Shown one piece after another: positions 2,658 through 17,814 of a DNA stretch of 32,000 bases. The translations under genes were made by a program, and so were the position numbers. Below the pieces are notes generated by a model. It searched no databases. It worked only from the letters and a program-made list of their open reading frames with translations, and was not told the origin of the DNA. The stretch comes from Candidatus Pelagibacter sp. HTCC7211 (GTDB lineage: Bacteria; Pseudomonadota; Alphaproteobacteria; Pelagibacterales; Pelagibacteraceae), in the NCBI RefSeq assembly GCF_000155895.1, contig NZ_DS995298.1:1170001-1202000 (forward strand). Reading direction: 5' to 3'. The first letter of the stretch is position 1. Every line of letters starts with the position of its first letter.

Positions 2658-2676
2658 AAGATTGATAAATAATATT

Positions 2677-3056: not shown

Positions 3057-5462
3057 TTAGTTTCTCATTTTTTGACCACTTGGATCGTAAAGTGGTTCTT
3101 TAATTACTGAACAATTAAATAGATTTCCATTTATCTCTACTTGAATTTTATTTTCAGACTTAATTTTATTTTGATCGATAAATGTAAATGCCACACTCTT
3201 GTTCACAAAATGTGCAAAACCTCCAGAAGTTACATAGCCAATGCTTTGATCTCCATTCATTACAGCTTCATTGTTCGTTACATCAATGTCATTTGTTTCA
3301 ACAATTAAAGGTGTAAGTTTGCTTGAGGAGCTTTCTTTTTGTGCGCTTTCTTTACCAATAAATTCTTTTTTCCAATTTATAAACATATCTAATCCAGTTT
3401 CTTTTGCAGTAAAATCTGGTCTATAATCTAACGTCCAAGCTCCCCAATTTTTCTCTAATCTCATAGACATTAATGCCCTTCCACCAAAAGGTTTAATATC
3501 AAATTCTTTTCCTGCTTCCATTAACTCTTCATAAAGTTTTAATTGATAGTGTGGTGCTACATAAATTTCATAGCCAAGCTCACCTGTAAATGAAATTCTA
3601 TTTATTATAGCTGGTACGCTACCAACGAACATTCTTCTAGAGTCTCTAAATTTAAACTTTTCATTTGAAACATCATCTCTAACGATTTTTTCTAATACTT
3701 TTCTTGAATTAGGTCCTGCAATTGACAACCCATGATACTCATCAGATCTATTTTTATAATTTAAATTAAATTTTCCTAAATGACTTTCAAACCAACGTCT
3801 ATGTATTTCTTGTGCAGCTCCTGACCCAAAAACCATAAATTCATTTTCATCTAAACAAGCTACAGTTAAATCTCCACACAATTTTCCTCTATATGATAAC
3901 ATTGGAGATAATGAAATTCTTCCAGGCTTTGGTAATCTTCCAGCCATAATATGATCTAAAAATTTTCTGGCATCAGGACCTTTAAATTCATGTTTCGAAA
4001 AGTTAGCAACTTCAATTAGCCCAACATTTTCTCTAACATTAATTACTTCTTTTGAAACATAATCATGTGATCTTGATCTTTTAATAGTGGGTTCTTCATG
4101 AGCATCTTCTTTATTGTTTGCAAACCACAAAACATTTTCTAATCCAAAGCTATCACCCATCACTGCTCCTTGATTTACAAAACGGTCGTAAAGTGCGGTT
4201 GTTTTTTGTTTTCTTCCTTTTGGAAGTGTTTCGTTTGGAAAAGTCATAATAAATCTTCGTTCATAATTTTCTGAAGATTTTACTGTTCCATATTGAGGTG
4301 ATGCATAATCTCCAAATCTTGCAACATCCATCGCCCAAACATCAATTGAAGGTTCACCATCAATTATCCACTCAGCAATACATTTTCCTACTCCTCCACC
4401 TTGGCAAAATCCTGCCATAACGCCAACTGCTACCCAATAATTTTTCATTCCTGGAACTGGACCAATTAAAGGACTTCCATCAGGACCAAAAGTAAAAGGA
4501 CCATTAACTATATTTTTAATTCCAGCACGTTCTAACGCTGGCATTCTTTCAAAACCTATCGCTAGTCTATCTTCAATATTATCTAATTTTGGCTGAAGTA
4601 ACTCATGTCCAAAGTTCATTGGGGTTCCTTCAACTTTCCATGGAGTTGATTTCGGCTCATAAGTTCCAAGCAACATTCCTTTTCCTTCTTGTCTAAAATA
4701 AATATTTCCCTCAAAATCTGTTCCTATCGGTAATCTTAGATCCCCCATTGCTTCTATTTCTGGAATGGACTCAGTGATTAAATAGTGATGTTCCATCGGT
4801 TGTACTGGGAGATTTAATCCTGCTAATTGACCAACTTCTCTTGCCCAAAGTCCTCCTGCATTAACAACAATATCAGCCTTAATATTCCCTTTATCTGTGA
4901 TTACGTCCCAAGATCCATCTTCTTTTTGTTTTGTGTCTTTAACAACTGTGTGGGTATAATACTTTCCCCCATGAACTTTTGCAGCTTTAGCAAAAGCATA
5001 AGTAACTCCCGATGGATCAACTTCACCATCAATAGGATCCCACAACGCCAATAAATATCTAGATGGATCAATTAAAGGGTTTTTCTTTTTTACTTCCTCT
5101 AGAGAAATGAACTCTTGATCAAGTCCCATGTATCTTGCTTTTGATCTTTCTCTCTTTAAATAATCAGCCCACACTTCGTTTGATGCTAAATAAAACCCAC
5201 CACTGGGTTTAAAGCCTACAGAATGACCAGACTCTTTTTCTATTTCTTTATACAGGCCTATTGTATAAGCCATCATGCGAGAGATATTTGGATCAGAAGA
5301 AATTACATGTACATTTCCAGCAGCATGCCAAGATGATCCTGAAGTCAGTTCATTTCTTTCAAGAAGAATACAATCTTTTAACCCGAACTTAGAAAGATGA
5401 TAGAGGATTGAACATCCAACTACTCCACCTCCTATAACAACTACCTTGGCATTTTTTTCCAT
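3057..5462 (-). CDS. dmgdh: Dimethylglycine dehydrogenase-type FAD oxidoreductase with a C-terminal GcvT/THF-binding domain
   Basis: N-terminal VVVIGGGVVGCS dinucleotide fold. SSWHAAG matches the covalent-FAD histidine motif of DMGDH/SARDH. C-terminal FTGELGYEIY is a GcvT signature. 801 aa, 1 nt downstream of the BHMT gene. Confidence 0.85.
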   Translation of the reverse strand: MEKNAKVVVIGGGVVGCSILYHLSKFGLKDCILLERNELTSGSSWHAAGNVHVISSDPNISRMMAYTIGLYKEIEKESGHSVGFKPSGGFYLASNEVWADYLKRERSKARYMGLDQEFISLEEVKKKNPLIDPSRYLLALWDPIDGEVDPSGVTYAFAKAAKVHGGKYYTHTVVKDTKQKEDGSWDVITDKGNIKADIVVNAGGLWAREVGQLAGLNLPVQPMEHHYLITESIPEIEAMGDLRLPIGTDFEGNIYFRQEGKGMLLGTYEPKSTPWKVEGTPMNFGHELLQPKLDNIEDRLAIGFERMPALERAGIKNIVNGPFTFGPDGSPLIGPVPGMKNYWVAVGVMAGFCQGGGVGKCIAEWIIDGEPSIDVWAMDVARFGDYASPQYGTVKSSENYERRFIMTFPNETLPKGRKQKTTALYDRFVNQGAVMGDSFGLENVLWFANNKEDAHEEPTIKRSRSHDYVSKEVINVRENVGLIEVANFSKHEFKGPDARKFLDHIMAGRLPKPGRISLSPMLSYRGKLCGDLTVACLDENEFMVFGSGAAQEIHRRWFESHLGKFNLNYKNRSDEYHGLSIAGPNSRKVLEKIVRDDVSNEKFKFRDSRRMFVGSVPAIINRISFTGELGYEIYVAPHYQLKLYEELMEAGKEFDIKPFGGRALMSMRLEKNWGAWTLDYRPDFTAKETGLDMFINWKKEFIGKESAQKESSSSKLTPLIVETNDIDVTNNEAVMNGDQSIGYVTSGGFAHFVNKSVAFTFIDQNKIKSENKIQVEINGNLFNCSVIKEPLYDPSGQKMRN

Positions 5463-5463
5463 A

Positions 5464-6504
5464 TTAATATTTGATCTCTTTATTTACTTTTTTCAAAGAC
5501 TTATCTGTTCCGTGATGAAAATGTTTGCTCATATCAGGCATATATTTCATTGAAATTGGTTTCTTTCCAATTGCAACTGACATCTCCCTGACGTGATGGG
5601 CTTCTGCTCCACAACATATACCAATAAAATTTATTTTACTTTCAACACAATCTTTAGCAAACTCTGCCATCTCGTATCGATTGCAAAATAAATTGTCTAA
5701 AGCAACAGGGAAAGCATTGCCTCCTGGAATAAGATCGCAGCCATGATCAGAAATATTTAAAAAGCCAGGTTCCTCTTCAGTTGTTCTGTAAGGAACAGGA
5801 AGTCCTGCCACATGACATGAAACTTTATCTCTAACTTTTTTTAATAATTTCATTGTCATCTCTGGTCCTCTATAACAATTCAAACCAACCAAATCAGCAC
5901 CTAGATCTTCCATCATCTTGCAAGCATCTTCAGCGCTGTGACCTTCTCTAGTTTTATCTCCTCTAGGTATTGCAAAATTACAAACCGCAATAAGTCCAGC
6001 ATCTTTTATAGCTTTTAATGCAATCTTCATTTCGTCAGACCAATTAATTGTTTCAGCAATAACAAAATCTACTCCAGCTTCTTTAGCCCAAGCAACTTGT
6101 TCCTCATACATTTGTTGACATTGTTTATGAGTATTCGCATCATTAGGATCAAATACATTTGTATTTGCTACATCTCCACAAACCATCAGATCTAGATCTT
6201 TAAATTCAGCAGCTGCATCTTTTGCAATTTTAAGAGCATTCTTTTGCATTGGTTCTAACAAATGCTCTTTACCTATTATTCGAAGTTTTTCTCTATGCCC
6301 ATAATATGTAAAAGCTTGAACAACATCTGAGCCAGCCCTAATAAATTCTCTATGTAATTGAGTTACTACCTCCGGATGTTCTAAAACAACTTCTGGAACA
6401 AAAGGTCCTGCTGACAGATATCCCCTTCTTTCCATTGCAAAAAGATACCCTTCAGCACACATTATTGGGCCTTCATTTAATCTAGTAATAAGATCTTTTT
6501 TCAT
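5464..6504 (-). CDS. bhmt: Betaine-homocysteine S-methyltransferase (Hcy S-methyltransferase domain)
   Basis: Hcy-methyltransferase TIM-barrel layout. Zinc cysteines sit in GLNCYRGP and GICCGA, the positions expected for BHMT/MetH-type Zn sites. Adjacent to dmgdh. Confidence 0.8.
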   Translation of the reverse strand: MKKDLITRLNEGPIMCAEGYLFAMERRGYLSAGPFVPEVVLEHPEVVTQLHREFIRAGSDVVQAFTYYGHREKLRIIGKEHLLEPMQKNALKIAKDAAAEFKDLDLMVCGDVANTNVFDPNDANTHKQCQQMYEEQVAWAKEAGVDFVIAETINWSDEMKIALKAIKDAGLIAVCNFAIPRGDKTREGHSAEDACKMMEDLGADLVGLNCYRGPEMTMKLLKKVRDKVSCHVAGLPVPYRTTEEEPGFLNISDHGCDLIPGGNAFPVALDNLFCNRYEMAEFAKDCVESKINFIGICCGAEAHHVREMSVAIGKKPISMKYMPDMSKHFHHGTDKSLKKVNKEIKY

Positions 6505-6515
6505 AATTTATCCTC

Positions 6516-7709
6516 TCATTTAGTTAAGTTAGTTGCAACCCACTTATGAAACATCAAAGTAGGAGTATCCATTACTGGGGAAAAATTTCCTCCATTATAA
6601 GCAGGGGAACTTCGACCCTTTTGCATTCCTTCTATTGCAGCAACATCTTCACTCATAACTTCTTGCCAAAATGCAAAATTTTTTTTTCTTATTTCTTTAT
6701 ATTCATCACTTGAAGCACTTTCATCTCCAACGTAATACATTTCAAAATGTTCTCTTGTATTGTTATTTGACAATGGTTCTAACCAAAATGCATAAAAATG
6801 ATCAACATGTATTCCAAGCATAACATTTGGAAATAGAGAAACATATTCTGAATTTTGATAAAGATCATTGGGCCAATTTGGAAATATTGAAAGTTTTTTA
6901 TTACCATCAAACTGTTGACTATATTTATTACTGCCTTGTCCTGAAAAAGTTTCTGCAAGATCTTCTATATGATAATGGTCTTTTAAATTTGAAACTCTAT
7001 TTAATTCTGGATGAACCCAGGGTAAGTGATAGCTTTCACAATAATTTTCAATTGCTAATTTCCAATTACTTTTTACTTCCATATTAAAATAACCAAAATC
7101 TCTAGCATGTCTTATTAACTTTTGATCCTCTCTTGATATAAACTTTGACCATTGTTTTTCTAAAGGATCGATACTTTGCTCAAAATCTTTTTTGTTTTTA
7201 TTGACATTAATGAATATTAAATCCATCCATACATGTGTTGAAATTTCTTTAAGATTGCTTTTTGATTTAATAAAACCTTCTGTCTCATGTATATTCATTC
7301 CGCCAACGTGAGGTGTGGCTATTAATTCACCATTAAAATTATATGACCATGAATGATATGGGCATCTTATAGTGTTCTTTATTTTGCATTCTTCTTTTAC
7401 AAGTATCATGCCTCTATGACTGCAAACATTATGAAATACTCTAATCTTATTATTTTTATCCCGTAAAATTAACAGTGGAATTCCCATTAAATTAAATGGT
7501 TTTGCATCGCCCACTTCGGGTACTGAACTGGAAACACCCACAACTATCCAGTTATTGAAAAAAACTTTCTCTCTTTCTATTTTAAAATATTCATCACTTA
7601 AATAACATTCATTAGGAAGACCATTTGCTTCATTAATTGATTTTTTTGTAGCTTCGATTTTATCTAGATCGACAATTCTTGATAATACATCTAAATTTTG
7701 TGACTTCAT
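6516..7709 (-). CDS. Rieske [2Fe-2S] non-haem iron oxygenase, alpha/catalytic subunit (substrate unknown; quaternary-amine oxygenase suspected from context)
   Basis: Rieske motif CSHRG...CPYHSW. Mononuclear iron motif NYCESYHLPWVH (HxxxxH). First gene of the co-directional array. Confidence 0.85.
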   Translation of the reverse strand: MKSQNLDVLSRIVDLDKIEATKKSINEANGLPNECYLSDEYFKIEREKVFFNNWIVVGVSSSVPEVGDAKPFNLMGIPLLILRDKNNKIRVFHNVCSHRGMILVKEECKIKNTIRCPYHSWSYNFNGELIATPHVGGMNIHETEGFIKSKSNLKEISTHVWMDLIFINVNKNKKDFEQSIDPLEKQWSKFISREDQKLIRHARDFGYFNMEVKSNWKLAIENYCESYHLPWVHPELNRVSNLKDHYHIEDLAETFSGQGSNKYSQQFDGNKKLSIFPNWPNDLYQNSEYVSLFPNVMLGIHVDHFYAFWLEPLSNNNTREHFEMYYVGDESASSDEYKEIRKKNFAFWQEVMSEDVAAIEGMQKGRSSPAYNGGNFSPVMDTPTLMFHKWVATNLTK

Positions 7710-7801
7710 TAACCTCCTTTTCTATTTAATTTAGTTTTACTTAAATTTAGAAAATTGGGTTTTTCTTACGATTCTCTGATGATTATTTGTTGAAATACAG
7801 G

Positions 7802-7835
7802 TTGACAATTCAAGCTGTATGAAAATCCATATACA
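7802..7835 (+). promoter_or_regulatory. Candidate promoter for the metF-like/GcvT-family pair (perfect -35 hexamer only)
   Basis: Perfect TTGACA at 7802-7807. Only poor -10 candidates (CATATA/ATATAC) lie 19-21 nt downstream. Confidence 0.25.
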
Positions 7836-7863
7836 AATTCTGGACCAATCCAAAACATAAAAA

Positions 7864-7890
7864 ATCGTACCATAAAATGGGCAAAATCAA
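7864..7890 (-). promoter_or_regulatory. Candidate sigma70-type promoter for the Rieske-bhmt-dmgdh array (extended -10)
   Basis: The minus strand reads TTGATT-N15-TACGAT, with TGG immediately 5' of TACGAT giving an extended -10 of the form TGnTAcgAT. This would leave a leader of about 145 nt. The spacer is short, the genome is AT-rich, and it overlaps a 35-codon ORF, so the call is weak. Confidence 0.25.
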
Positions 7891-7960
7891 AATAAAATTC
7901 TATCTACAAGTGGTTCTTTAAGGTAGCTGAATTTCTTTGACAGCATTTTCAAATAAGATA

Positions 7961-8704
7961 ATGATCGAGAAAAAAATGAATTTTTCACTAGAAATTGGTC
8001 CTAAAACTGACCTTGAAACGTTACCTCCGGTTAAGGATGTTTACGTCACAATGCTACCTGGTGGAGACTATAAAGAGACTTCAGATCAATCTATTGAACT
8101 TGTAAAAAAAGGTTTTAATCCTGTGCCTCATTTTCCCGCAAGATCAATTGAAAACGATTCTGAGCTAAAAGATTACGTTTCAAGATGTAAAGACGGTGGA
8201 GTAAAACAAGCATTAATAATTGGTGGTGGTAGAGAACCAATGGGAAAATTTGATAGTTCATTTCAACTTTTAGAAACAGGTTATTTTGAAAATATGAAAA
8301 TAGGAATTGCTGGGCATCCCGAGGGAAGTCCTGACATATCCGATACCGATTTAGACAAAGCTATGATGGATAAAAAGCCTTATGCTGATTATATAGTAAC
8401 TCAGTGGTTATTAGACCCTCAGCCTATCATAGATTTTATTTCTAAACAAAGCGTACCAGTACATGTTGGAATTACTGGACCTCTAAAAATATCAAGCTTA
8501 ATAAAGTTTGCTAATATTGTTGGAGCAAAAAATTCCTTAAATTTTCTTAAATCTAATTTTAGTAAGGCGTTAGATTTATTGAAACCTAAAGACCCTAATG
8601 ATTTAATTGGGAAAGTTAAATCGCATACTGATAACTTCCACATTTATACATTCGGCGGCTTGAAGGAAACAAACAAGTGGTTGAAGGAGAATAGTTATGT
8701 CTAA
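7961..8704 (+). CDS. metF: Methylenetetrahydrofolate reductase family protein (MetF-like)
   Basis: By-eye matches to MetF blocks: FSLEIGPK, VYVTMLPGG, PHFPAR, ALIIGGG, IAGHPEGSPD, YIVTQWLLDP, VHVGITGP, FHIYTFGG. The track start at 7937 is a TTG. In-frame ATGs at 7961 and 7976 are more likely, so the start is uncertain by up to 39 nt. Confidence 0.75.
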   Translation: MIEKKMNFSLEIGPKTDLETLPPVKDVYVTMLPGGDYKETSDQSIELVKKGFNPVPHFPARSIENDSELKDYVSRCKDGGVKQALIIGGGREPMGKFDSSFQLLETGYFENMKIGIAGHPEGSPDISDTDLDKAMMDKKPYADYIVTQWLLDPQPIIDFISKQSVPVHVGITGPLKISSLIKFANIVGAKNSLNFLKSNFSKALDLLKPKDPNDLIGKVKSHTDNFHIYTFGGLKETNKWLKENSYV

Positions 8705-10055
8705 TGAATTTGACTATACTAAACTAAAACATGTTACTTCAGTTGATCAATCAGATCGTGCAGTACCATATAATTTAAGACAAAGTGGGCCAACTAAAGT
8801 TGAAATGCTTATCTCAACAAGGGTAAGAAAATCACCTTATTGGCATTTATCAATGCAGGCAGGTTGTTGGAGAGCAACTGTTTACAATCGTATTTATCAC
8901 CCAAGAGGATATGTAAAACCAGAAGATGGTGGAGCAATGGTTGAGTATGATGCAATTGTAAATCACGTTACTATGTGGAACGTTGCTGTTGAAAGACAAA
9001 TAAGAGTTAAAGGTCCGGATGCAGAAAAATTTACAGACTATGTAATAACGAGAGATGCAACAAAAATTTCTCCGATGAGAGCAAGATATGTGATTTTGTG
9101 TAATGCTTATGGAGGAGTATTAAATGATCCAATCCTACTTAGAATTGCTGAAGATGAATTTTGGTTTTCATTATCAGACTCTGATATTGGTATGTACCTT
9201 CAAGGTGTAAATGCTGATGGAAGATTTGATTGTACAATTGAGGAAATTGATGTCAGTCCTGTGCAGATACAAGGACCAAAATCAAAAGCTTTAATGAAAG
9301 ACCTTTGTGGAGATCAAGTTGATTTTGATAATATGCCTTTCTACGGCTTAGCGGAAGTAAAAGTTGGTGGAAGAAGTTGTATAATTTCTCAATCTGGTTT
9401 CTCTGGAGAAGCTGGATATGAAATTTATCTAAGAGACTCGACTTTATACGCTGAGGATATGTGGAATGCTGTTCTTGAAGCAGGTAAAAAACATAGCCTA
9501 ATGGTTATTGCTCCTGCTCACCATAGAAGAATTCAAGCTGGAATTCTTTCATGGGGTCAAGATATGGATCAACAACACAATCCTTTTCAGTGTAACTTAG
9601 GTTATCAAGTTTCTTTATCTGGAAAAGGTGAATGGTCTAAAAAAGGTGACTATGTCGGTAAAGCTGCATTAGAAAAAATGGGTGCTGAACTTAAAGATGG
9701 CAAAAAACCTTATAAGCTTCAATTAGTTGGACTTGAATTAGGTGGAAAACCTATTGAAGAGTACGCTCCTGATTTTTGGCTAGTATCACCAGAGAGTGGT
9801 GGAGATCCTGTTGGATTTATAACTTCTCCTTGGTATCACCCAGAAAAAAAACAAAACATAGCAATGGGATATGTGCCGTTTGATGGAACATTAAATGCAA
9901 ATGGTTTTCCAAAAGGTAAGGTTGGAACTAAATTTAAAGTTCACCTGCCTGAAAAATACTCTGACACACCAGGAACTCCTGTTGATGCAGTTGTAGTAGA
10001 TATTCCATTTAAAGAGTCTTTCAACGCAAATACTAGAGAAGTTGTAAAAGGCTAA
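8697..10055 (+). CDS. GcvT-family THF-dependent aminomethyltransferase/demethylase (LigM/DesA/DmdA-like)
   Basis: FSGEAGYEIY GcvT signature and a VKGPDA motif. The 452-aa length and long N-terminal extension resemble aromatic O-demethylases LigM/DesA more than my recollection of DmdA (about 370 aa). It overlaps the metF-like stop by 8 nt. Confidence 0.75.
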   Translation: MSNEFDYTKLKHVTSVDQSDRAVPYNLRQSGPTKVEMLISTRVRKSPYWHLSMQAGCWRATVYNRIYHPRGYVKPEDGGAMVEYDAIVNHVTMWNVAVERQIRVKGPDAEKFTDYVITRDATKISPMRARYVILCNAYGGVLNDPILLRIAEDEFWFSLSDSDIGMYLQGVNADGRFDCTIEEIDVSPVQIQGPKSKALMKDLCGDQVDFDNMPFYGLAEVKVGGRSCIISQSGFSGEAGYEIYLRDSTLYAEDMWNAVLEAGKKHSLMVIAPAHHRRIQAGILSWGQDMDQQHNPFQCNLGYQVSLSGKGEWSKKGDYVGKAALEKMGAELKDGKKPYKLQLVGLELGGKPIEEYAPDFWLVSPESGGDPVGFITSPWYHPEKKQNIAMGYVPFDGTLNANGFPKGKVGTKFKVHLPEKYSDTPGTPVDAVVVDIPFKESFNANTREVVKG

Positions 10056-10064
10056 ATTTATTTT

Positions 10065-10096
10065 GGGGGAGCAAATTAAAGCTCCCCCATTTCTTC
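10065..10096 (+). terminator. Rho-independent terminator-type hairpin
   Basis: GGGGGAGC (10065-10072), 8-nt loop, GCTCCCCC (10081-10088), then the T-rich ATTTCTTC. It starts 10 nt after the GcvT-family stop codon and is the only GC-rich hairpin I found in the window. Confidence 0.75.
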
Positions 10097-10097
10097 A

Positions 10098-10199
10098 ATG
10101 ACAAAGGGTTTTTTGATAGTAATTTGCATTATCATTGCGATTGCTTTAATAGTATTCCCATTATTAGTTTCATATAAAGCACAAAAGAATAAAAAATAA
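10098..10199 (+). CDS. 33-aa single-pass membrane mini-protein (below the ORF-track cutoff)
   Basis: My translation: MTKGFLIVICIIIAIALIVFPLLVSYKAQKNKK, a hydrophobic helix with a basic C-terminal tail. Its TAA overlaps the ATG of the next gene (TAATG at 10197-10201). Confidence 0.45.
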   Translation: MTKGFLIVICIIIAIALIVFPLLVSYKAQKNKK

Positions 10200-10744
10200 T
10201 GTTTGCCGAATTTTTAAGTATAGTTTTTAAATCTATAAAATTAGATAAATCTTTATATTCAGATAATAAAAATTTTGGTGAAGCTTCTATTTATTTTGCT
10301 GGGATAATAATGATTTTAGATGGGATCGCGGGTGCTGTTGCTGCTAACACAGTAATTAAAACAGCAGTTGCTATGTCTGGACTTACATCAATTTTAACTT
10401 GGTTAGTTTGGGCAATCTTTATTTATGTGATTGGTGTTAAACTTTTTCCAGACAAAAAAGCAAAGGTTCCTTTTAAAAAAGTTTTAACAGCAGTTGGGTT
10501 TGCTCATGCACCTGGTTTACTTAGATTTTTCGCAGTAACACCCAATATGATGATACCGATTATTTTTCTGACACAATTTTGGATTTTTGCAGGATTAATT
10601 ATTTCTACAAAGCAAGTATTGGGCTTAAAATCTAACATAAAATCTTTTGGTATAGTTTTTTTATCGTTTTTAATTATAGCATTCTTATCAATTTCTTTTG
10701 TAATGAGCAGAATGAATATGTTGCCTGTTAGCCAGATTAGCTAG
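10199..10744 (+). CDS. Yip1-domain-like polytopic membrane protein
   Basis: 181 aa with about five hydrophobic segments. The layout resembles bacterial Yip1/DUF1282-type membrane proteins. No catalytic motifs seen. Confidence 0.5.
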   Translation: MFAEFLSIVFKSIKLDKSLYSDNKNFGEASIYFAGIIMILDGIAGAVAANTVIKTAVAMSGLTSILTWLVWAIFIYVIGVKLFPDKKAKVPFKKVLTAVGFAHAPGLLRFFAVTPNMMIPIIFLTQFWIFAGLIISTKQVLGLKSNIKSFGIVFLSFLIIAFLSISFVMSRMNMLPVSQIS

Positions 10745-10908
10745 ATTGGAAAAATAGTCTTAGATACCCTACAAGACGAACAAAGCTTATAACTAGTTAA
10801 AATTAAATTTTGAGACACACTTTCATCTTCTTTTTTGCATTCTTCACAAACATTATCTAGTTCTTTGATAATTTCAGAATTATTGCTTTTGTCTGATTCA
10901 TCAGTCAT
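10741..10908 (-). CDS. 55-aa acidic mini-protein with a CxxC...CxxC (zinc-ribbon-like) motif
   Basis: MTDESDKSNNSEIIKELDNVCEECKKEDESVSQNLILTSYKLCSSCRVSKTIFPI. I trimmed the start to the ATG at 10908, which overlaps the upstream gene's stop by 8 nt (ATGACTGA). The longer track ORF (to 10953) would overlap that gene by 53 nt. Confidence 0.5.
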   Translation of the reverse strand: MTDESDKSNNSEIIKELDNVCEECKKEDESVSQNLILTSYKLCSSCRVSKTIFPI

Positions 10909-11509
10909 TATCTGTAAGGCCAGCTCCTGCTCCACTCTGTTTAAGACTATCACTTTCTTCTACAAATGTATTTTCAGCTAATTTGTATAAACTATTCCAA
11001 TCTGAGTCTGTAAAGTTGTCTTTGTTATCTAAAAGTTTTACCTCTAAATTATTTGAATGTTTACTGAAGTCCTTATTAAATCCATTCGAAAAAATATTTA
11101 CATTTAAGTTAAGTAAAATTTCATTTTGATCAAATTTAACATATATTTTTTTTCCACTTACTTCAGATGCTCTGCTTAAAAATGACAAAAAAATTATTGG
11201 ATACGCAATCTTTTTAAAGTGTATCGTGTCAAAATTCTCTATTGCTTTAATTTGATCTAAAAAACTAACACCAAGTGTAATTGGACAGAAAGCTTCTTGA
11301 GCAATATTTTTCTCACTGATTGAATTTAAATTTTCAAATTTTTTTATTTCTCTTTCTTTGTAATACTGATTTAAATTTTTTATTCCTGCTAATCCAAATA
11401 ACTCTAATAATCTTATAGACTTTCCAACTTCCTCAGAAACTCCCCAAGAAAAACCTACTGCCCTACTAGCTCTTTTAACTGCAGTTTCAATTTCACTTAA
11501 AGATCTCAT
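10901..11509 (-). CDS. Hypothetical 202-aa protein (from memory resembles ~200-aa DUF3726-type alphaproteobacterial proteins; unverified)
   Basis: Intact ORF 2 nt after the upstream stop. N-terminus SLSEIETAVKRASRAVGFSWGVSEEVGKSIRLLELFGLAG; Gly/Ala-rich acidic tail SGAGAGLTDND. No catalytic motif recognised. Confidence 0.6.
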   Translation of the reverse strand: MRSLSEIETAVKRASRAVGFSWGVSEEVGKSIRLLELFGLAGIKNLNQYYKEREIKKFENLNSISEKNIAQEAFCPITLGVSFLDQIKAIENFDTIHFKKIAYPIIFLSFLSRASEVSGKKIYVKFDQNEILLNLNVNIFSNGFNKDFSKHSNNLEVKLLDNKDNFTDSDWNSLYKLAENTFVEESDSLKQSGAGAGLTDND

Positions 11510-11511
11510 TA

Positions 11512-13179
11512 TTAATTGTTAGCTTTATAAACCCATTGCTCGTCATAGTTTTTTAATTCATTTGGTAGTGGCGCACCTTGGAACATACAAATTCTTAGCC
11601 ATTTATCTGATCTAGGGTCAAATTTTAACGCACCAAAAAAAGATAATTTAAGTCTAAGCATATCAATAGGGACAATACTTTTACCAATTGTATTGTCTTG
11701 AATCTCAGAATATGGAAATTTTTCAATTATAAAAGCTCTTCTAACAACATGTCTTAAATCTGAGTTCGATGATAAAAATTGAGCAATTGTTGTGTCATTT
11801 TTTAAAGAAAGTAATTGCTCATAAAGTTTTTTTATATCCCTTGCTATAGCTAGAGGTTGTTCTAATTCAGATCCATGTTCTTCAAACCTGTCAGCCATCC
11901 TAGGCTCTTCTTTGTTTTTTGATATAAACCAGAAATTTTGATTATTTTCTTTTTGATCAAAATTTATATCCAAAATATTTGGATATCTAGTTTTAATAAT
12001 TTCCATTAATTCTTGCGTTGTTCGATTGGTTGGAATATTAAAATACTTTTCTTCTTCAGAGCTCATATTGCTAACTAAAGGCTCGGTAATATCGTTATAA
12101 GGCTCCATCATTATAGAGACTACGTATTCTATACATTCCTCGCATGAATTCTGCTCTAACCACAAATATATCTGATTAAATGGAAACTCAGACTGAAAAT
12201 CAAAATCATTTTCAACATGATTGATCAATTTTTTAACATCTCTTAATAATAATCTAATTTTATTCTGTTGATATTCACTGTCTGTATTCCAGCTAGTAAT
12301 ATTTTTTAATGATTTTTTTAAACAATCTTTAAAAAGTTGACTGTCTTGATTTTTAACAATTTCAATTTCTCTAATCTTTTTTAATGCTATTTCTCTACTT
12401 AAAATCCAATTATTTAACAATGTTGGGTGATTAACTATAAAAGGAGCCATACCAAGACCAGTAGAGTTTCCAATACCTAAATTTTTACAAATTTGATTAT
12501 CTAGTTTTACTGCTGTTTTGGGATTTATATTATGAGCAACATGGTTTACCTGATCAAACGTAAATTGTCTTACTAAATAAACTAACATCATTTCTAATCT
12601 AAAAGGACCGTTAATTTCCTCTCTATTTTTAATCCGAAATCTATCTGCTAGACCAAATTTTCCAGATCCATAAACTGCTGTAGTTCTGTATAAATAACCA
12701 ACTTTTGACAATAAATCTAAATCAGGTTGTTTACCCTCACTTAAATTTTTCACAACATGATTAAAAACTCTAATAGACTTATTTGCTCTTGATAAAGTTA
12801 ACTCTTTAAATGTAAGTCTACCTATTTCTTGTTTAGGGACCTCGTTTTTTAATCTTTTAATATCATCTTTACTGGGTACACCGTCATAAAGTGTAAAAGC
12901 AGCATCCCACTTAGTAGCTATTACTCTATCGGATCTTTCTTCATCTTCAATCTTATTGGCAAAACAAACTAATGAATAAACTCTATCTTTTTTTTTAAAT
13001 GAATATATTGCCTCTCCATAACCATCTTTATCTAAGTTAAATAAATCTCTATTATAATCCCAATCTTTGAATTCACTTAAAAAACTTCTTAAAAAAGATA
13101 GTTTTGATTGGTGAAATGATCCTAATCTAGATAATTTCATTATTGTGTTTGGGTCTCTTAATTCAACTTTCATAATCAA
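11512..13179 (-). CDS. Hypothetical 555-aa protein, no family recognised
   Basis: Long intact ORF in a stop-codon-rich AT genome. Its ATG overlaps the M19 gene stop (ATGA, 13176-13179). No P-loop, Rossmann or metal motif that I can name. Conserved-looking blocks: RTTAVYGSGKFGLADRF and NLGIGNSTGLGMAPFIVNHP. Confidence 0.65.
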   Translation of the reverse strand: MIMKVELRDPNTIMKLSRLGSFHQSKLSFLRSFLSEFKDWDYNRDLFNLDKDGYGEAIYSFKKKDRVYSLVCFANKIEDEERSDRVIATKWDAAFTLYDGVPSKDDIKRLKNEVPKQEIGRLTFKELTLSRANKSIRVFNHVVKNLSEGKQPDLDLLSKVGYLYRTTAVYGSGKFGLADRFRIKNREEINGPFRLEMMLVYLVRQFTFDQVNHVAHNINPKTAVKLDNQICKNLGIGNSTGLGMAPFIVNHPTLLNNWILSREIALKKIREIEIVKNQDSQLFKDCLKKSLKNITSWNTDSEYQQNKIRLLLRDVKKLINHVENDFDFQSEFPFNQIYLWLEQNSCEECIEYVVSIMMEPYNDITEPLVSNMSSEEEKYFNIPTNRTTQELMEIIKTRYPNILDINFDQKENNQNFWFISKNKEEPRMADRFEEHGSELEQPLAIARDIKKLYEQLLSLKNDTTIAQFLSSNSDLRHVVRRAFIIEKFPYSEIQDNTIGKSIVPIDMLRLKLSFFGALKFDPRSDKWLRICMFQGAPLPNELKNYDEQWVYKANN

Positions 13180-14141
13180 ATTGATTTATAAAAATTGTAC
13201 CAATTATTTCCAAGTATTCCTTGTGTCTCACTGTCTGAAAACCCTGCTTTTTTAAGACCATTTTCAATATTTTTAAATCCTCTAGCATCCTCAAACCATT
13301 CTGGTTGTTTTGGAAAACCAGGTTTGTTTTTAGATCCTTCTCCATAATTTTTGCTTTTAGACCAAGTGCCATTTCTCATCCATTCAACAACTGTATCGGC
13401 TTGATTTAAACAAAGGTCTGATCCAATACCAATATTTTTTATTTCCATAATTTCTGCTGTTCTTGCAACCATCTCGCAAAAACTCTCAATTGTGCAATTA
13501 GTATTATTTTTTAAATGATGTGGATATAAAGACAAACCTAGCATACCTCCACTTTCACTTAATGTTTTTAACAGTTCATTAGATTTATTTCTTTTTGCAG
13601 CGTGCCAAAAAGATGGATTAGCATGAGTAATAGCTATTGGTTTTTCACTTAATTCTATTGCATCAAATGTACTTTTCTCTGCTGAATGAGACATATCAAT
13701 AACAATGCCAACTCTATTCATTTCTTTAATAACTTCACGACCAAAATTAGTTACACCACTATCTATTTTTTCATAACAGCCAGTTGCGAGTAATGACTGA
13801 TTATTATAAGTCAGTTGCATAAATCTACATCCCAACGAATGTACTTTTTCTACTAAACTAATATCATCTTCAATGGGTGAACAATTTTGAAACCCAAAAA
13901 AAATTGCTGTTTTTTTTTCAACGTTTGCTTTTTCGATATCTTTAAAATCATTGCCTAAAAAAATTAAATCTGAGTTTTCTGAAAAGAGTTTTTCCCATTT
14001 TTTAGTTTCACCTACTAACTCATCAAAATCTTCATGATAAACAATAGTTACGTGAACTGCGTCTAGATTTGCCTCTCTATTGAATTCAAAGATCTCTCTA
14101 GACCAATTACAATATTGTAGATTATCTATTTTAAAATTCAT
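13176..14141 (-). CDS. M19 (renal/membrane dipeptidase) fold amidohydrolase homolog with a non-canonical metal site
   Basis: Aligns by eye to DPEP1 blocks: VIDMSHS (His198 block), IAITHANP (His219 block), IGIGSDL (Asp288 block), MQLTYNNQS (LTLTHSCN block). However, IDNLQY replaces IDGHND and GFQNC replaces GVEGG. Confidence 0.75.
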   Translation of the reverse strand: MNFKIDNLQYCNWSREIFEFNREANLDAVHVTIVYHEDFDELVGETKKWEKLFSENSDLIFLGNDFKDIEKANVEKKTAIFFGFQNCSPIEDDISLVEKVHSLGCRFMQLTYNNQSLLATGCYEKIDSGVTNFGREVIKEMNRVGIVIDMSHSAEKSTFDAIELSEKPIAITHANPSFWHAAKRNKSNELLKTLSESGGMLGLSLYPHHLKNNTNCTIESFCEMVARTAEIMEIKNIGIGSDLCLNQADTVVEWMRNGTWSKSKNYGEGSKNKPGFPKQPEWFEDARGFKNIENGLKKAGFSDSETQGILGNNWYNFYKSI

Positions 14142-14233
14142 AAAGTACCAATTCTAATCAATATGTTTTTAAATACTATTAATTTTATTGAAATTTTGAG
14201 TTTATTTTGAAATAAAGATTTTGGTAAAATTTC

Positions 14234-14725
14234 ATGAAAAAAAATAAATCATTAAAAGTTTCAATAGTAATGGGTAGTCAGTCTGACTATAAAATTATGC
14301 ATCTTGCAGAAAAAACACTAAAAAAAATAGGTGTACCTTTTGAGATTAAAATCATATCAGCGCACAGAACTCCAAAAAGAATGTACGATTATGCTCTAGC
14401 AACTAAAAGAAATAATATTGGTGTAATTATAGCTGGAGCAGGTGGTTCTGCTCATTTACCAGGAATGATATCTGCATTAACATCTTTACCAGTTCTAGGA
14501 GTACCAATTGAAAGTAAAAAATTAAAAGGTTTAGATAGCTTATTATCTATAGTTCAAATGCCTAAAGGTATCCCAGTTGGTACACTTGCCATCGGTGAAG
14601 ATGGCGCAATAAATGCTGCGTTACTTGCAGCTTCAATTATTGGAAATAATAATCAATCAATAAAAAATAAATTAAATAATTGGAGAGCAGCTCAAACAAA
14701 ATCTGTAAAAAAAAAACCTAAATAA
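14234..14725 (+). CDS. purE: N5-carboxyaminoimidazole ribonucleotide mutase
   Basis: GSQSD, SAHRTP and AGGSAHLPGM class I PurE motifs. 163 aa, followed by purK. Confidence 0.95.
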   Translation: MKKNKSLKVSIVMGSQSDYKIMHLAEKTLKKIGVPFEIKIISAHRTPKRMYDYALATKRNNIGVIIAGAGGSAHLPGMISALTSLPVLGVPIESKKLKGLDSLLSIVQMPKGIPVGTLAIGEDGAINAALLAASIIGNNNQSIKNKLNNWRAAQTKSVKKKPK

Positions 14726-17067: not shown

Positions 17068-17814
17068 ATGATCGGAATTTTAGGTGGAATGGGTACTCAA
17101 GCAGGTCTTGATTTTTGCAATAAACTAGCGATTTTAAATAGAGGAAAGATAGATCAAGAATACCCATTATTTCTGCTTTACAATAAATCAAACATTCCAG
17201 GAAGACCAGAGTCTATTGGCATTCAAACTAGAAGTTTATCAAATAAATCTACAAACAAAGTCAGTAAAATTAAATACAATAAAGTTTTAAAAAGTTTACT
17301 TCGTGGATGTAAACTTTTAGAAAAAAATAAATGTAAATTTATTGTTATACCTTGTAACACAGCACATTATTGGTTTGATGATTTGCAAAAAAAAGTAAAT
17401 ATCTCAATTATTAATATGCCTAAAGAGGTTTTCAAATTCACAAAACAGAATTGTAAAAAAAATTCTAAAATTGGGCTATTGGCAACTGAAGGAACTTTAA
17501 ATACTGGTGTGTACCATAATTTTTTTAATAAAAATTATGATTTAGTCCAACCTTCACAAACACTTCAAAAAAAATCAGTAAATAAAGCAATTAAACTTGT
17601 TAAGATGGGGAACGTAAAAGCTGCAGCAAAAGCTATAAAACCAGCAATAAATTCTCTTTTAAAGATGAAATGTAAAAAGATAATATTAGGATGCACTGAA
17701 CTTCCAATTGCAATTTTTGCATTTAAATCTTTTGAAAATGTAAAATCTTCTAAAATCTTTTTAGATCCAAATTTGATCCTTGCAAATTCTGCGATGCATA
17801 AACATAGTAGATAA
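17068..17814 (+). CDS. Asp/Glu/hydantoin racemase family protein (aspartate racemase-like)
   Basis: GILGGMG N-terminus. Both catalytic cysteine motifs are present: IPCNTAHYW and LGCTELP. Confidence 0.8.
   Translation: MIGILGGMGTQAGLDFCNKLAILNRGKIDQEYPLFLLYNKSNIPGRPESIGIQTRSLSNKSTNKVSKIKYNKVLKSLLRGCKLLEKNKCKFIVIPCNTAHYWFDDLQKKVNISIINMPKEVFKFTKQNCKKNSKIGLLATEGTLNTGVYHNFFNKNYDLVQPSQTLQKKSVNKAIKLVKMGNVKAAAKAIKPAINSLLKMKCKKIILGCTELPIAIFAFKSFENVKSSKIFLDPNLILANSAMHKHSR

What the first reader, a model, noticed from the sequence alone, without database searches (positions are those of the whole stretch)
10741..14141. Tightly coupled four-gene operon of unknown function: the best candidate for an undescribed system
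Four minus-strand genes are packed for translational coupling:
- The M19-fold gene and the 555-aa gene share ATGA (13176-13179).
- The 555-aa and 202-aa genes are separated by 2 nt.
- The 202-aa gene and the 55-aa CxxC...CxxC gene overlap by 8 nt (ATGACTGA).

Only the first protein has a fold I can name, and its active site looks non-canonical (see the separate finding). The 555-aa protein has no nucleotide-binding, metal or cofactor motif I recognise. The 202-aa protein ends in a Gly/Ala-rich acidic tail. The last product is a highly acidic mini-protein with a zinc-ribbon-like cysteine pattern.

In a genome this compact, retaining about 3.4 kb of unannotatable, coupled coding sequence implies a selected function. 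The operon sits among methyl-group/C1 and amino-acid-derivative catabolic genes. An amide or peptide-like osmolyte or metabolite-processing complex is a reasonable guess, but only a guess.
Basis: partly seen in the sequence, partly recalled or inferred. Interest (0 to 1): 0.8.

Follow-up and report, generated by a model that had tools for sequence, protein, structure and literature searches.

The report
Conserved uncharacterised three-subunit catabolic enzyme operon
This SAR11 (Pelagibacter HTCC7211) operon is real and encodes a widely conserved but undescribed enzyme: a dipeptidase-like protein with a dismantled zinc site, a 555-residue protein with no known relatives, and a remnant of a dehydrogenase fold, probably the first step in breaking down an imported nitrogen-containing solute.

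Summary
All four minus-strand genes exist at the stated coordinates. The window is Ca. Pelagibacter sp. HTCC7211.

- **Observation:** two of the three junctions read as described. The M19/555 junction is TTGA (or a 2-nt gap), not ATGA. Tight packing is the norm in this genome, so it proves nothing by itself.
- **Independent support:** the four genes are syntenic in 80 SAR11 genomes. M19-like + 555-aa + DUF3726 recur in Alpha-, Beta- and Gammaproteobacteria. A haloarchaeon has the latter two without M19. The 555-aa and DUF3726 proteins are often fused.
- **555-aa protein:** no Pfam, NCBIfam or PDB match. Its AlphaFold model is confident (pLDDT 95) and has no PDB fold relative.
- **M19 protein:** groups with PDB 2I5G (probably P. 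aeruginosa PA5396). It lacks four canonical zinc-dipeptidase residues.
- **DUF3726:** a diverged N-terminal half of the type-2 malate/lactate dehydrogenase (Ldh_2) fold. Its GAGAG-acidic C-terminal tail is conserved across the closer subfamily.
- **55-aa CxxC…CxxC protein:** a real gene under purifying selection, found only in SAR11.
- **Context elsewhere:** usually LysR | aldehyde dehydrogenase, ± Ldh_2, ± RidA, and a BCCT, TRAP or ABC importer.

Best reading: a heteromeric C–N-cleaving catabolic enzyme for an unidentified zwitterionic solute. Substrate and chemistry remain unknown.

The parts
13176..14141 (-). M19-like TIM-barrel subunit (321 aa), a non-canonical 'dipeptidase' of the 2I5G (probably PA5396) subfamily
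   Evidence: Pfam Peptidase_M19, E 5.8e-70, with profile positions 1-37 (which hold the HxD motif) unmatched. Best PDB match is 2i5g, 'amidohydrolase', E 2e-54. Alignment to 1itq and 3id7 shows Glu125 replaced by Gln (GFQN) and His152 by Tyr (LTYNN), while the His198, His219 and Asp288 equivalents are kept. The N-terminus reads IDNLQY where canonical enzymes read DGHND. The same pattern appears in 9 triad-linked orthologues. It is 59.6% identical to the Phaeobacter orthologue. Its 90%-identity cluster has 5346 members.
11512..13179 (-). 555-aa subunit (553 aa from the ATG at 13173), with no assigned family and no solved fold relative
   Evidence: No Pfam, NCBIfam or PDB sequence hit for the protein, for 53 diverse members, or for their profile. 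1387 50%-identity clusters match at E<=1e-3. AlphaFold2 gives pLDDT 95.1 and pTM 0.94. The best Foldseek PDB hit has E 0.33 and TM below 0.1. Invariant motifs include RANKS, RTTAVYGxGKFG, GxGNxTGLGMAP and EPRLG.
10901..11509 (-). DUF3726 subunit (202 aa): a diverged N-terminal Ldh_2-like domain with a conserved C-terminal tail
   Evidence: Pfam DUF3726, E 1.7e-19, residues 2-72. It is fused C-terminally to the 555-aa domain in many homologues. The fused-homologue model hits only Ldh_2-family structures near the top (probability 0.8-0.99, about 150 columns). hhalign links the long-form extensions to DUF3726 (E 1e-10) and to AllD/Ldh_2 (E 1.7e-5). Third-subunit proteins of Natrinema, Variovorax and S. 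meliloti hit Pfam Ldh_2 (E 4.8e-9, 0.005, 0.02; all below Pfam's 38.8-bit gathering cut-off).
10904..10933 (-). Codons for the C-terminal tail GAGAGLTDND of the DUF3726 subunit
   Evidence: The same tail, S..GAGAG(L/I)(S/T)D(N/S)D-COOH, is found in Phaeobacter, Mesorhizobium, a metagenomic homologue and the fused proteins. Shortened forms occur in a Pseudomonas plasmid and Natrinema. The last 5 residues are disordered in the fused model.
10741..10908 (-). 55-aa acidic CxxC-x19-CxxC mini-protein (probable zinc ribbon), a SAR11-specific fourth gene
   Evidence: Present in 75 SAR11 loci (57 distinct sequences) with all four Cys invariant. 15 of 17 invariant amino-acid columns carry synonymous codon variation. 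No homologue or CxxC ORF lies downstream of DUF3726 in non-SAR11 loci. No Pfam hit. Annotated as hypothetical protein WP_196242560.1.
14142..14233 (.). 92-bp AT-rich divergent intergenic region shared with purE, the presumed promoter region of the operon
   Evidence: Read directly from the sequence. There is one promoter-like match on the minus strand at 14211-14182, but matches in the scanned region (16) were fewer than in shuffles (mean 23.6). No Rfam family matches in the window. The promoter role is inferred only.

Best explanation
The operon encodes one heteromeric catabolic enzyme with three conserved subunits.
- **M19-like subunit:** a TIM-barrel protein that keeps the fold, the His198/His219/Asp288 equivalents and an RNK motif. 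From memory, that motif corresponds to the carboxylate-binding Arg of renal dipeptidase. The binuclear-zinc peptidase apparatus is gone.
- **555-aa subunit:** a fold not represented in the PDB.
- **DUF3726 subunit:** a catalytically stripped N-terminal half of the Ldh_2 fold, ending in a flexible GAGAG-acidic tail.

SAR11 adds a small Cys4 (probably zinc-binding) protein.

**Shown.** The genes are a conserved unit. The 555-aa and DUF3726 parts act as one polypeptide in many organisms. The unit usually travels with a substrate-specific regulator, an importer for zwitterionic or carboxylate solutes, and an aldehyde dehydrogenase closest to 2,5-dioxovalerate (alpha-ketoglutarate semialdehyde) dehydrogenases. 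An Ldh_2 oxidoreductase and/or RidA is often present too.

**Inferred.** The complex carries out the committed C–N-bond-breaking step on an imported nitrogenous solute. The products are an aldehyde, oxidised by the ALDH, and an imine/enamine or amine, handled by RidA. The M19-like subunit performs or completes a hydrolytic step on a C=N or carbinolamine-type intermediate rather than on a peptide bond. The 555/DUF3726 pair supplies substrate binding and the other half of the chemistry.

In SAR11 the product would feed the adjacent methyl-group/C1 oxidation island. The substrate is not identified.
For: **Unit and complex.**
- Four-gene synteny in 80 SAR11 loci.
- The three genes are adjacent in Phaeobacter, Mesorhizobium, S. 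meliloti, a Pseudomonas plasmid, Variovorax, Aestuariivirga, Marivibrio and several metagenomic contigs.
- At least 60 natural 555+DUF3726 fusions.
- The fused model has pTM 0.90 with only the linker and termini disordered.

**Catabolic context.**
- A LysR or IclR regulator plus a BCCT, TRAP (DctP), Liv-type, PotD-type or TTT importer sits next to the genes.
- An ALDH is present in most loci. It scores best against GucD / 2,5-dioxovalerate dehydrogenase models (about 450-480 bits, below their cut-offs).
- RidA is in the operon in L090 and nearby in two plasmids.
- A genuine Ldh_2 gene lies directly downstream in three genomes.

**Not a peptidase.**
- Four canonical catalytic or metal residues are replaced in every triad-linked orthologue.
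- The closest solved relative, 2i5g, matches the length of PA5396 (325 aa).
- M19-like genes of this type head dgc operons in Ralstonia, P. aeruginosa and Vibrio, next to the amine-oxidising DgcAB.
- They also sit next to FAD oxidoreductases and an ALDH in Rhodococcus and Gluconobacter.

**Natrinema.** It has the 555 and Ldh_2-like genes, an ALDH, a DHDPS-family gene and a BCCT, but no M19. This is compatible with another deaminase or hydrolase type replacing M19.
Against: - No experiment exists on any member, and no substrate is known.
- No cofactor or nucleotide motif is recognisable in the 555-aa protein, so a redox role is unsupported.
- The SAR11 operon itself has no ALDH, regulator, RidA or transporter, so the pathway inference is imported from orthologues that are 25-60% identical.
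- Importer types differ between subfamilies, so substrates probably differ too.
- The only genetic datum is a PA5396 transposon insertion that phenocopies dgcB. It is in the first gene of that operon and could be polar.
- The dgc operon pairs M19 with DUF5943/V4R, not with 555/DUF3726.
- Physical association of the M19 subunit with the other two rests on adjacency only. No M19 fusion was seen.
- One long-form homologue (L092) and Natrinema lack a nearby M19.
Confidence: 0.5

Rival explanations
1. The M19-like protein is a working amidase or dipeptidase, perhaps mono-metal like beta-site-only amidohydrolases. It hydrolyses an amide or peptide-like osmolyte. The 555-aa and DUF3726 proteins are non-catalytic specificity, assembly or regulatory subunits.
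For: - The M19 fold is retained with very high conservation: 85% within SAR11 and 59.6% to Phaeobacter, higher than the other subunits.
- The His198, His219 and Asp288 equivalents and the RNK motif are retained.
- Some amidohydrolase-superfamily enzymes work with a single beta-site metal (from memory: E. coli NagA).
- Importer and regulator contexts fit any small-solute hydrolase.
Against: - The bridging Glu is Gln, the HxD pair is gone, and His152 is Tyr in all orthologues.
- Relatives sit in dgc operons, where the pathway has no known amide bond to hydrolyse (pathway chemistry from established knowledge).
- The recurring ALDH and RidA point to aldehyde and imine products, not to simple amide hydrolysis.
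- The 555-aa protein is too large and too conserved, with dozens of invariant Arg, Gly, Trp and Pro residues, to be a mere adaptor.
Confidence: 0.2
2. The module is not a catabolic enzyme. It could be an accessory or maturation factor, or a ligand-sensing module. One example is a pseudoenzyme complex that assembles or protects amine-oxidising enzymes or handles a reactive by-product such as formaldehyde.
For: - Both recognisable subunits look like stripped-down enzymes. M19 lacks its metal ligands and Ldh_2 lacks its SHG motif and C-terminal half.
- In dgc operons M19-like is paired with a V4R small-molecule-binding protein and is not one of the named catalytic subunits, DgcA and DgcB.
- In SAR11 the operon has no pathway partners.
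Against: - In Variovorax and S. meliloti the triad with only a regulator and an importer forms the whole locus, with no other candidate catalytic enzyme to assist.
- ALDH, triad and importer operons under a LysR regulator look like self-contained catabolic units.
Confidence: 0.12
3. The four genes are functionally unrelated neighbours. Their tight spacing only reflects SAR11 genome streamlining.
For: Most same-strand junctions in this window are equally tight.
Against: - The trio is adjacent in many unrelated, non-streamlined genomes and on plasmids.
- Two of the genes are fused in many lineages.
Confidence: 0.03

Closest known systems
[quoted passage not shown] PDB 2I5G is probably PA5396.
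   Same: It is the closest solved relative of the SAR11 M19-like subunit (E 2e-54). It has the same replacement pattern: IDG-L.. at the N-terminus, GFQN, and His/His/Asp kept. It is the first gene of an operon for catabolism of a methylated amine. Its function is also unknown.
   Different: Its partner is a 177-aa DUF5943+V4R protein and the DgcAB flavoprotein/Fe-S demethylase. It is not paired with the 555-aa or DUF3726 proteins. The SAR11 window uses a DMGDH-type enzyme for dimethylglycine and has no dgcAB.
Canonical family-M19 zinc dipeptidases (human renal dipeptidase 1ITQ, Streptomyces Sco3058 3ID7, GliJ)
   Same: Same TIM-barrel family (Pfam E 5.8e-70). The His198, His219 and Asp288 equivalents are conserved.
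   Different: The His20/Asp22 motif is absent, Glu125 is Gln and His152 is Tyr. Canonical enzymes act alone. This one is always linked to the 555/DUF3726 genes or to amine oxidoreductases.
Type-2 malate/lactate dehydrogenase family (Ldh_2, PF02615): AllD, YiaK, ComC and the imine reductase/N-methyl-amino-acid dehydrogenase DpkA
   Same: The DUF3726 subunit resembles the first ~140 residues of the Ldh_2 fold. A true Ldh_2 gene lies directly downstream of the triad in three genomes.
   Different: Only the N-terminal half is present (202 aa against about 340). The SHG catalytic motif is missing in the alignments. There is a family-specific C-terminal helix and GAGAG-acidic tail. No sequence-level PDB hit was found.
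Hydroxyproline / hydroxyproline-betaine catabolic operons (imino-acid dehydrogenase, DHDPS-type pyrroline-4-hydroxy-2-carboxylate deaminase, alpha-ketoglutarate semialdehyde dehydrogenase, Ldh_2-type pyrroline-2-carboxylate reductase). This comparison is by context only, from knowledge of those pathways.
   Same: The accessory set recurs around the triad: a GucD-like ALDH, an Ldh_2 oxidoreductase, RidA, a DHDPS-family gene in Natrinema, BCCT importers, and betaine-catabolism genes nearby.
   Different: None of the known catalytic enzymes of those pathways is homologous to the 555-aa protein. The ALDH scores are below every equivalog cut-off. The link is a lead, not a test.

Membership tests
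Peptidase family M19 (zinc dipeptidases) | Sequence and fold membership in the M19 TIM-barrel family | tested here: met
   Pfam PF01244, E 5.8e-70, 236 bits against a cut-off of 26. PDB M19 entries match at E 1e-12 to 1e-54.
Peptidase family M19 (zinc dipeptidases) | Binuclear zinc ligands His20, Asp22, Glu125, His198, His219 (human numbering) | tested here: not met
   Glu125 is Gln (GFQN). The N-terminal DGHND is replaced by IDNLQY, and Pfam profile positions 1-37 are unmatched. Only His198 and His219 are kept. The canonical N-terminal motif is taken from memory.
Peptidase family M19 (zinc dipeptidases) | Catalytic-site His152 and Asp288 | tested here: inconclusive
   Asp288 is kept (GSD). 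His152 is aligned to Tyr (LTYNN against LTHN/LTHS).
Peptidase family M19 (zinc dipeptidases) | Dipeptide hydrolysis activity | not testable with these tools
   Needs an enzyme assay and metal analysis.
PA5396/2I5G-type M19-like subfamily (dgc-operon type) | Closest similarity to 2I5G and the shared replacement pattern | tested here: met
   2i5g is the top PDB hit (E 2e-54, full length) and shares IDG-L and GFQN with His/His/Asp kept.
PA5396/2I5G-type M19-like subfamily (dgc-operon type) | Operon with a DUF5943/V4R protein and dgcA-dgcB | tested here: not met
   The SAR11 operon and all triad loci have 555-aa and DUF3726 genes instead. The dgc architecture was seen in Ralstonia.
DUF3726 (PF12525) | Match to the ~73-residue N-terminal domain above the gathering score | tested here: met
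   E 1.7e-19, 69.9 bits against 22.1, residues 2-72.
Ldh_2 (type-2 malate/lactate dehydrogenases) | Homology to the Ldh_2 fold | tested here: inconclusive
   N-terminal ~140 residues only. Foldseek probability is 0.8-0.99 but E is 0.07-0.6, and the model is of a fused homologue. hhalign gives E 1.7e-5 via the long-form relatives, but only 0.024 directly. Pfam Ldh_2 gives E 4.8e-9 for the Natrinema orthologous-position protein, just under the cut-off. A profile search of PDB sequences found nothing.
Ldh_2 (type-2 malate/lactate dehydrogenases) | Full-length (~330-350 aa) enzyme with the conserved SHG His motif | tested here: not met
   The protein is 202 aa. The SHG position is a gap or non-His in the hhalign alignments.
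Rubredoxin / zinc-ribbon small proteins (55-aa product) | Two CxxC pairs | tested here: met
   C21-x2-C24 … C43-x2-C46, invariant in 75 loci.
Rubredoxin / zinc-ribbon small proteins (55-aa product) | Profile match to a described rubredoxin or zinc-ribbon family | tested here: not met
   No Pfam family at E<=1. Only chance-level NCBIfam hits. The spacing and the lack of CxxCG/CPxCG differ from rubredoxin (motif from memory).
Conserved 'M19-like + 555 + DUF3726' triad (defined in this work) | Adjacent genes for all three proteins | tested here: met
   Window and 80 SAR11 loci. Orthologues are 59.6%, 44.8% and 24.7% identical to those of Phaeobacter.
Conserved 'M19-like + 555 + DUF3726' triad (defined in this work) | Operon-linked ALDH, LysR/IclR regulator and importer | tested here: not met
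   None of these flanks the SAR11 operon. Its neighbours are purE/purK and a 181-aa membrane protein.
Anti-phage defence systems | Match to any PADLOC model | tested here: not met
   No hit at E<=0.01 for any of the proteins.

The most novel reading that the evidence does not exclude
The triad is a new class of enzyme. Its main subunit (the 555-aa family, about 1400 clusters at 50% identity) has a fold and active site with no solved or described relative. Two 'fossil' enzyme folds have been recruited as subunits: a de-metallated M19 barrel and a half Ldh_2 domain whose conserved C-terminal tail may plug into the barrel's carboxylate-binding pocket. Together they would perform a previously undescribed C–N cleavage on an abundant marine zwitterionic solute. 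That would make this operon a major, so far unrecognised sink for that compound in SAR11, the most abundant marine heterotroph.
Probability: 0.3. Interest if true: 0.85.

Novelty: new variant of a known kind. Interest (0 to 1): 0.66.

Why it matters
**Abundance.** SAR11 genomes are extremely streamlined, yet all 80 nearest genomes keep this 3.4-kb operon. The M19-like gene alone has more than 5000 near-identical variants in public marine data.

**Breadth.** The same three-protein unit is spread over Proteobacteria and probably Actinobacteria, and haloarchaea carry two of the three. It typically sits next to solute importers and an aldehyde dehydrogenase. It therefore probably opens a catabolic route for a common nitrogen-containing solute that current annotation misses completely.

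**What identification would bring.**
- A missing reaction for models of marine dissolved organic nitrogen and carbon turnover.
- A function for DUF3726 and for a large family that has no Pfam entry.
- Possibly an explanation for the unexplained PA5396 gene of the Pseudomonas and Vibrio dimethylglycine operon.
- A clear example of pseudo-enzyme folds reused as subunits.

Tried and rejected
- **Family assignment of the 555-aa protein.** I tried Pfam, NCBIfam, PDB sequence search, scans of 53 diverse members, a profile search against PDB, and Foldseek of a pLDDT-95 model. All were negative.
- **Walker-A or Rossmann reading of the Gly-rich motifs.** Rejected. AVYGSGKF fails the final S/T position of the Walker A pattern (as recalled), and Foldseek found no P-loop or Rossmann fold.
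- **PA5397 as a DUF3726 protein.** My initial recollection was wrong. It is DUF5943+V4R.
- **A small CxxC ORF, or a CxxC C-terminal extension of DUF3726, outside SAR11.** None found.
- **Direct sequence link from DUF3726 to Ldh_2.** Weak (hhalign E 0.024; profile against PDB gave nothing). It became credible only through the fused-protein model, the long-form relatives and Pfam hits of orthologous-position proteins.
- **Literature.** There were no papers for DUF3726, DUF5943, 2I5G, or membrane dipeptidase+BCCT+ALDH, and no hits for P. inhibens locus-tag prefixes covering the estimated gene numbers. Other P. inhibens plasmid-tag hits were irrelevant. Wargo 2008 (PMC2293255) is not held.
- **Genome-collection scan.** The single scan returned only Pelagibacteraceae among its best 80 loci. 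Distant contexts had to come from the plasmid collection and exact-protein look-ups.
- **Defence system, riboswitch, terminator.** No PADLOC, Rfam or terminator matches.
- **Substrate identification.** NCBIfam scoring of the linked ALDH, BCCT and Ldh_2 genes and the enolase-superfamily neighbours gave only sub-threshold nearest families.

Full report
**Source and observation**

The window is from Candidatus Pelagibacter sp. HTCC7211 (SAR11). The 553-aa form of the large protein is 100% identical to its 'conserved hypothetical protein'. All four products are in RefSeq as dipeptidase, hypothetical protein, DUF3726 domain-containing protein and a 55-aa hypothetical protein.

Two junctions are as described. 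There is a 2-nt gap between the 555-aa and 202-aa genes, and an ATGACTGA overlap between the 202-aa and 55-aa genes. The third was misread. Bases 13179-13176 on the minus strand read TTGA, so only a TTG start would overlap the M19 stop. The annotated ATG (13173) starts 2 nt after it.

Tight spacing is not informative here. About 14 of the 20 other same-strand junctions in the window are just as tight. The case for a functional unit has to rest on comparative evidence, and that evidence is strong.

**Conservation**

A scan of one genome per species returned at least 579 relatives of the 555-aa protein. The best 80 are all Pelagibacteraceae. In every one of these loci that is long enough, the same four genes follow each other next to purE. 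Mean identities are about 85% (M19-like), 82% (555 aa), 66% (DUF3726) and 63% (55 aa).

The 55-aa ORF is a real gene. In 75 loci (57 distinct sequences) the four cysteines are invariant. In the last 38 codons, 15 of the 17 invariant amino-acid columns show synonymous codon variation. The first ~17 residues vary freely. I found it nowhere outside SAR11.

**The 555-aa protein**

It has no match in any of the following:
- Pfam, NCBIfam (June 2026) or PDB sequences, whether searched alone, as 53 diverse homologues, or as a profile.
- PADLOC.

The family is nevertheless large. 1387 clusters at 50% identity match at E<=1e-3. An AlphaFold2 model built on 53 diverse sequences is very confident (pLDDT 95.1, pTM 0.94). 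Foldseek against the PDB still found nothing better than E 0.33 with TM below 0.1.

The family has many invariant Arg, Gly, Trp and Pro residues and several motifs: RANKS, RTTAVYGxGKFG, a strand-loop-helix GxGNxTGLGMAP, and EPRLG. These suggest an anion-binding active site. They match no cofactor signature that I can verify.

**Fusions and the identity of DUF3726**

Many homologues are 760-816 aa long and carry DUF3726 at their C-terminus. This is a natural fusion of the second and third genes. A more distant branch is 840-943 aa.

An AlphaFold2 model of a fused homologue (P0125, 42% identical to the SAR11 protein) gave pLDDT 88.5 and pTM 0.90. Only the linker and termini were disordered. The two parts are therefore predicted to pack in a defined way.

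Foldseek with this model returned type-2 malate/lactate dehydrogenase (Ldh_2) structures in 12 of its top 15 places: AllD, YiaK, DpkA and structural-genomics 'malate dehydrogenases'. The better-fitting of these hits align over about 150 columns, with probabilities of 0.8-0.99, although the E-values are weak (0.07-0.6). None of these hits appeared with the 555-only model.

Two independent checks agree with this assignment:
- The C-terminal extensions of the long-form branch are homologous to DUF3726 (hhalign probability 97%, E 1e-10). They also align to residues 3-142 of AllD/Ldh_2 (E 1.7e-5).
- The proteins occupying the DUF3726 position in Natrinema, Variovorax and S. meliloti hit Pfam Ldh_2 directly (E 4.8e-9, 0.005, 0.02; all below Pfam's gathering cut-off).

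DUF3726 is therefore best read as a diverged N-terminal half of the Ldh_2 fold. The SHG motif of the active enzymes is absent.

All members of the closer subfamily end in the same tail, S..GAGAG(L/I)(S/T)D(N/S)D-COOH. This holds from SAR11 to Mesorhizobium, and shortened forms occur in a Pseudomonas plasmid and a haloarchaeon. No function for this tail is known.

**The M19-like protein**

It clearly belongs to the M19 family, but it is not a canonical zinc dipeptidase. In alignments to human renal dipeptidase and Sco3058:
- The bridging Glu125 is Gln.
- His152 is Tyr.
- The N-terminal DGHND motif is IDNLQY.
- The His198, His219 and Asp288 equivalents, and an RNK motif, are kept.

The same pattern is found in all nine triad-linked orthologues I aligned. 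It is also found in the best PDB match, 2I5G (E 2e-54), a 325-aa P. aeruginosa 'amidohydrolase' whose length matches PA5396.

PA5396-type genes head the dimethylglycine operon: PA5396-PA5397-dgcA-dgcB in P. aeruginosa, pepD-hp-dgcAB-fixAB in Vibrio, and glyA-M19-DUF5943/V4R-dgcA-dgcB in Ralstonia. A PA5396 transposon mutant behaves like a dgcB mutant (PMC13492115). A polar effect on downstream genes is possible.

Related M19-like genes also sit beside FAD-dependent oxidoreductases in Rhodococcus and Paracoccus, and beside an unspecified 'oxidoreductase' in Gluconobacter. An ALDH is present in the Rhodococcus locus. No step of dimethylglycine demethylation involves a peptide or amide bond. This subfamily therefore probably does something other than peptide hydrolysis, in the company of C–N-oxidising or C–N-cleaving enzymes.

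**Genomic context outside SAR11**

The recurrent layout is LysR | ALDH – M19-like – (BCCT) – 555 – DUF3726 – (Ldh_2) – (RidA) – importer. It occurs in these places:
- Phaeobacter plasmids.
- Mesorhizobium and Aestuariivirga, with a fused gene, Ldh_2 and a Liv-type ABC system.
- Marivibrio and metagenomic contigs, with BCCT and RidA.
- A probably actinobacterial contig.
- A contig with a TRAP transporter and Ldh_2.
- An Antarctic Pseudomonas plasmid, with RidA and BCCT.

Divergent subfamilies keep the trio with other regulators and importers. S. meliloti pSymB has IclR, a PotD-type ABC system and an aminotransferase. Variovorax has IclR and a TTT binding protein. A long-form locus has an ALDH, a glutathione S-transferase (GST) gene and a PotD-type ABC system.

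The haloarchaeon Natrinema has the 555-aa and Ldh_2-like genes, an ALDH, a DHDPS-family gene and a BCCT, but no M19.

The linked ALDHs score best against alpha-ketoglutarate-semialdehyde / 2,5-dioxovalerate dehydrogenase models, ahead of betaine-aldehyde dehydrogenase, but below every curated cut-off.

In SAR11 the operon stands alone between purE/purK and a membrane-protein gene. It lies inside a methyl-group/C1 island holding these genes:
- DMGDH
- BHMT-like methyltransferase
- Rieske oxygenase
- DmdA-like GcvT protein
- sarcosine oxidase
- formate-THF ligase
- an FMO-family (Tmm-like) monooxygenase
- DddP-like M24 protein

**Interpretation**

Shown:
- A conserved three-subunit unit, with two subunits often fused.
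- Repeated linkage to solute importers, specific regulators, an ALDH, and often RidA and Ldh_2.
- A de-metallated M19 barrel and a truncated Ldh_2 domain.
- A main subunit with no known relative.

Inferred:
- The unit is the committed catabolic enzyme for an imported zwitterionic nitrogen compound.
- It breaks a C–N bond to give an aldehyde plus an amine or imine.
- The M19-like subunit acts on a C=N or carbinolamine-type intermediate rather than on a peptide.

A more specific lead is a (hydroxy)proline- or imino-acid-derived substrate. The accessory set (GucD-like ALDH, Ldh_2-type reductase, DHDPS-type gene, RidA, betaine importers) mirrors known hydroxyproline and hydroxyproline-betaine routes. 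This rests on context and on my knowledge of those pathways. I would give it no more than about 15%.

**Rival explanations**

- A literal amidase with two helper subunits: about 20%.
- A non-catalytic accessory or sensing module: about 12%.
- Unrelated neighbouring genes: about 3%, effectively excluded for the core trio.

**Verdict**

I searched the held literature for DUF3726, DUF5943, 2I5G, the locus tags I could guess, and the gene combination. Nothing describes this system.

I rate it as a new variant of a known kind: a solute-catabolic operon built around an amidohydrolase-superfamily subunit. The main subunit has no family or fold relative. There is therefore an appreciable chance, about 0.3, that the triad is a new enzyme class.

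Interest is fairly high because of its abundance in SAR11 and its breadth across phyla. It is tempered by the complete lack of functional data.

Noticed in passing
window 10199-10744 (+): A 181-aa multi-pass membrane protein with no Pfam or PADLOC match. It converges on the operon, and its stop codon overlaps the stop of the 55-aa gene (10741-10744). It is syntenic at 86-98% identity in 72 of the 74 SAR11 loci that reach it, but only about 28% identical in two (L012, L022).
   Followed up: partly
window 7937-10055 (+): An overlapping gene pair: a 255-aa protein with a weak MTHFR-like match, and a 452-aa GcvT-family protein whose best NCBIfam model is DMSP demethylase DmdA (232 bits, below the 410 cut-off). 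This may be a methyl-transfer enzyme of unassigned substrate.
   Followed up: partly
window 1422-2705 (-): An M24-family protein whose best model is the DMSP lyase DddP (341 bits against a cut-off of 600). It sits next to a small 123-aa ORF and the DMGDH gene, so it is DddP-like rather than a confirmed DddP or creatinase.
   Followed up: partly
window 6516-7709 (-): A Rieske oxygenase alpha subunit next to the BHMT-like and DMGDH genes. It resembles glycine betaine monooxygenase GbcA only distantly (123 bits against a cut-off of 670). Among the genes I scanned, none beside it was an obvious reductase partner.
   Followed up: no
window 17068-17814 (+): An Asp/Glu-type racemase closest to cysteate racemase CuyB (146 bits against a cut-off of 190). 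It is followed by a 146-aa ORF with no family and an EamA transporter.
   Followed up: no
L086 (Natrinema versiforme pNVE500) 4902-14285: An archaeal version of the system with no M19 gene: a DHDPS-family gene, an ALDH, a ~1.5-kb stretch with no convincing ORF, the 555-aa homologue, a 317-aa Ldh_2-like protein and a BCCT. This may be replacement of the M19 subunit by another enzyme type, or gene decay.
   Followed up: partly
P0211, P0233, P0236, P0239-P0267 (long-form homologues); L087, L092: A distant branch (27-30% identity) fuses the 555 domain to a longer (280-370 aa) Ldh_2-like extension that ends in ..LVP(D/E)..E.. instead of the GAGAG tail. One such gene (L092) has no M19 or ALDH nearby, only an NMT1-type ABC importer and a LacI regulator.
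   Followed up: partly
L099 (Paracoccus sp. TOH plasmid) 6354-7945; L098 (Ralstonia) 6971-8614: The M19-like protein paired with a DUF5943+V4R ('4-vinyl reductase') protein occurs without dgcAB in Paracoccus, next to an MFS transporter. The M19-like plus small-ligand-binding pair may therefore be a module in its own right.
   Followed up: no
cluster 4: The 90%-identity cluster of the 55-aa protein lists a 532-aa YidC from Sulfurimonas as a member. This is almost certainly a clustering artefact in the protein collection.
   Followed up: no
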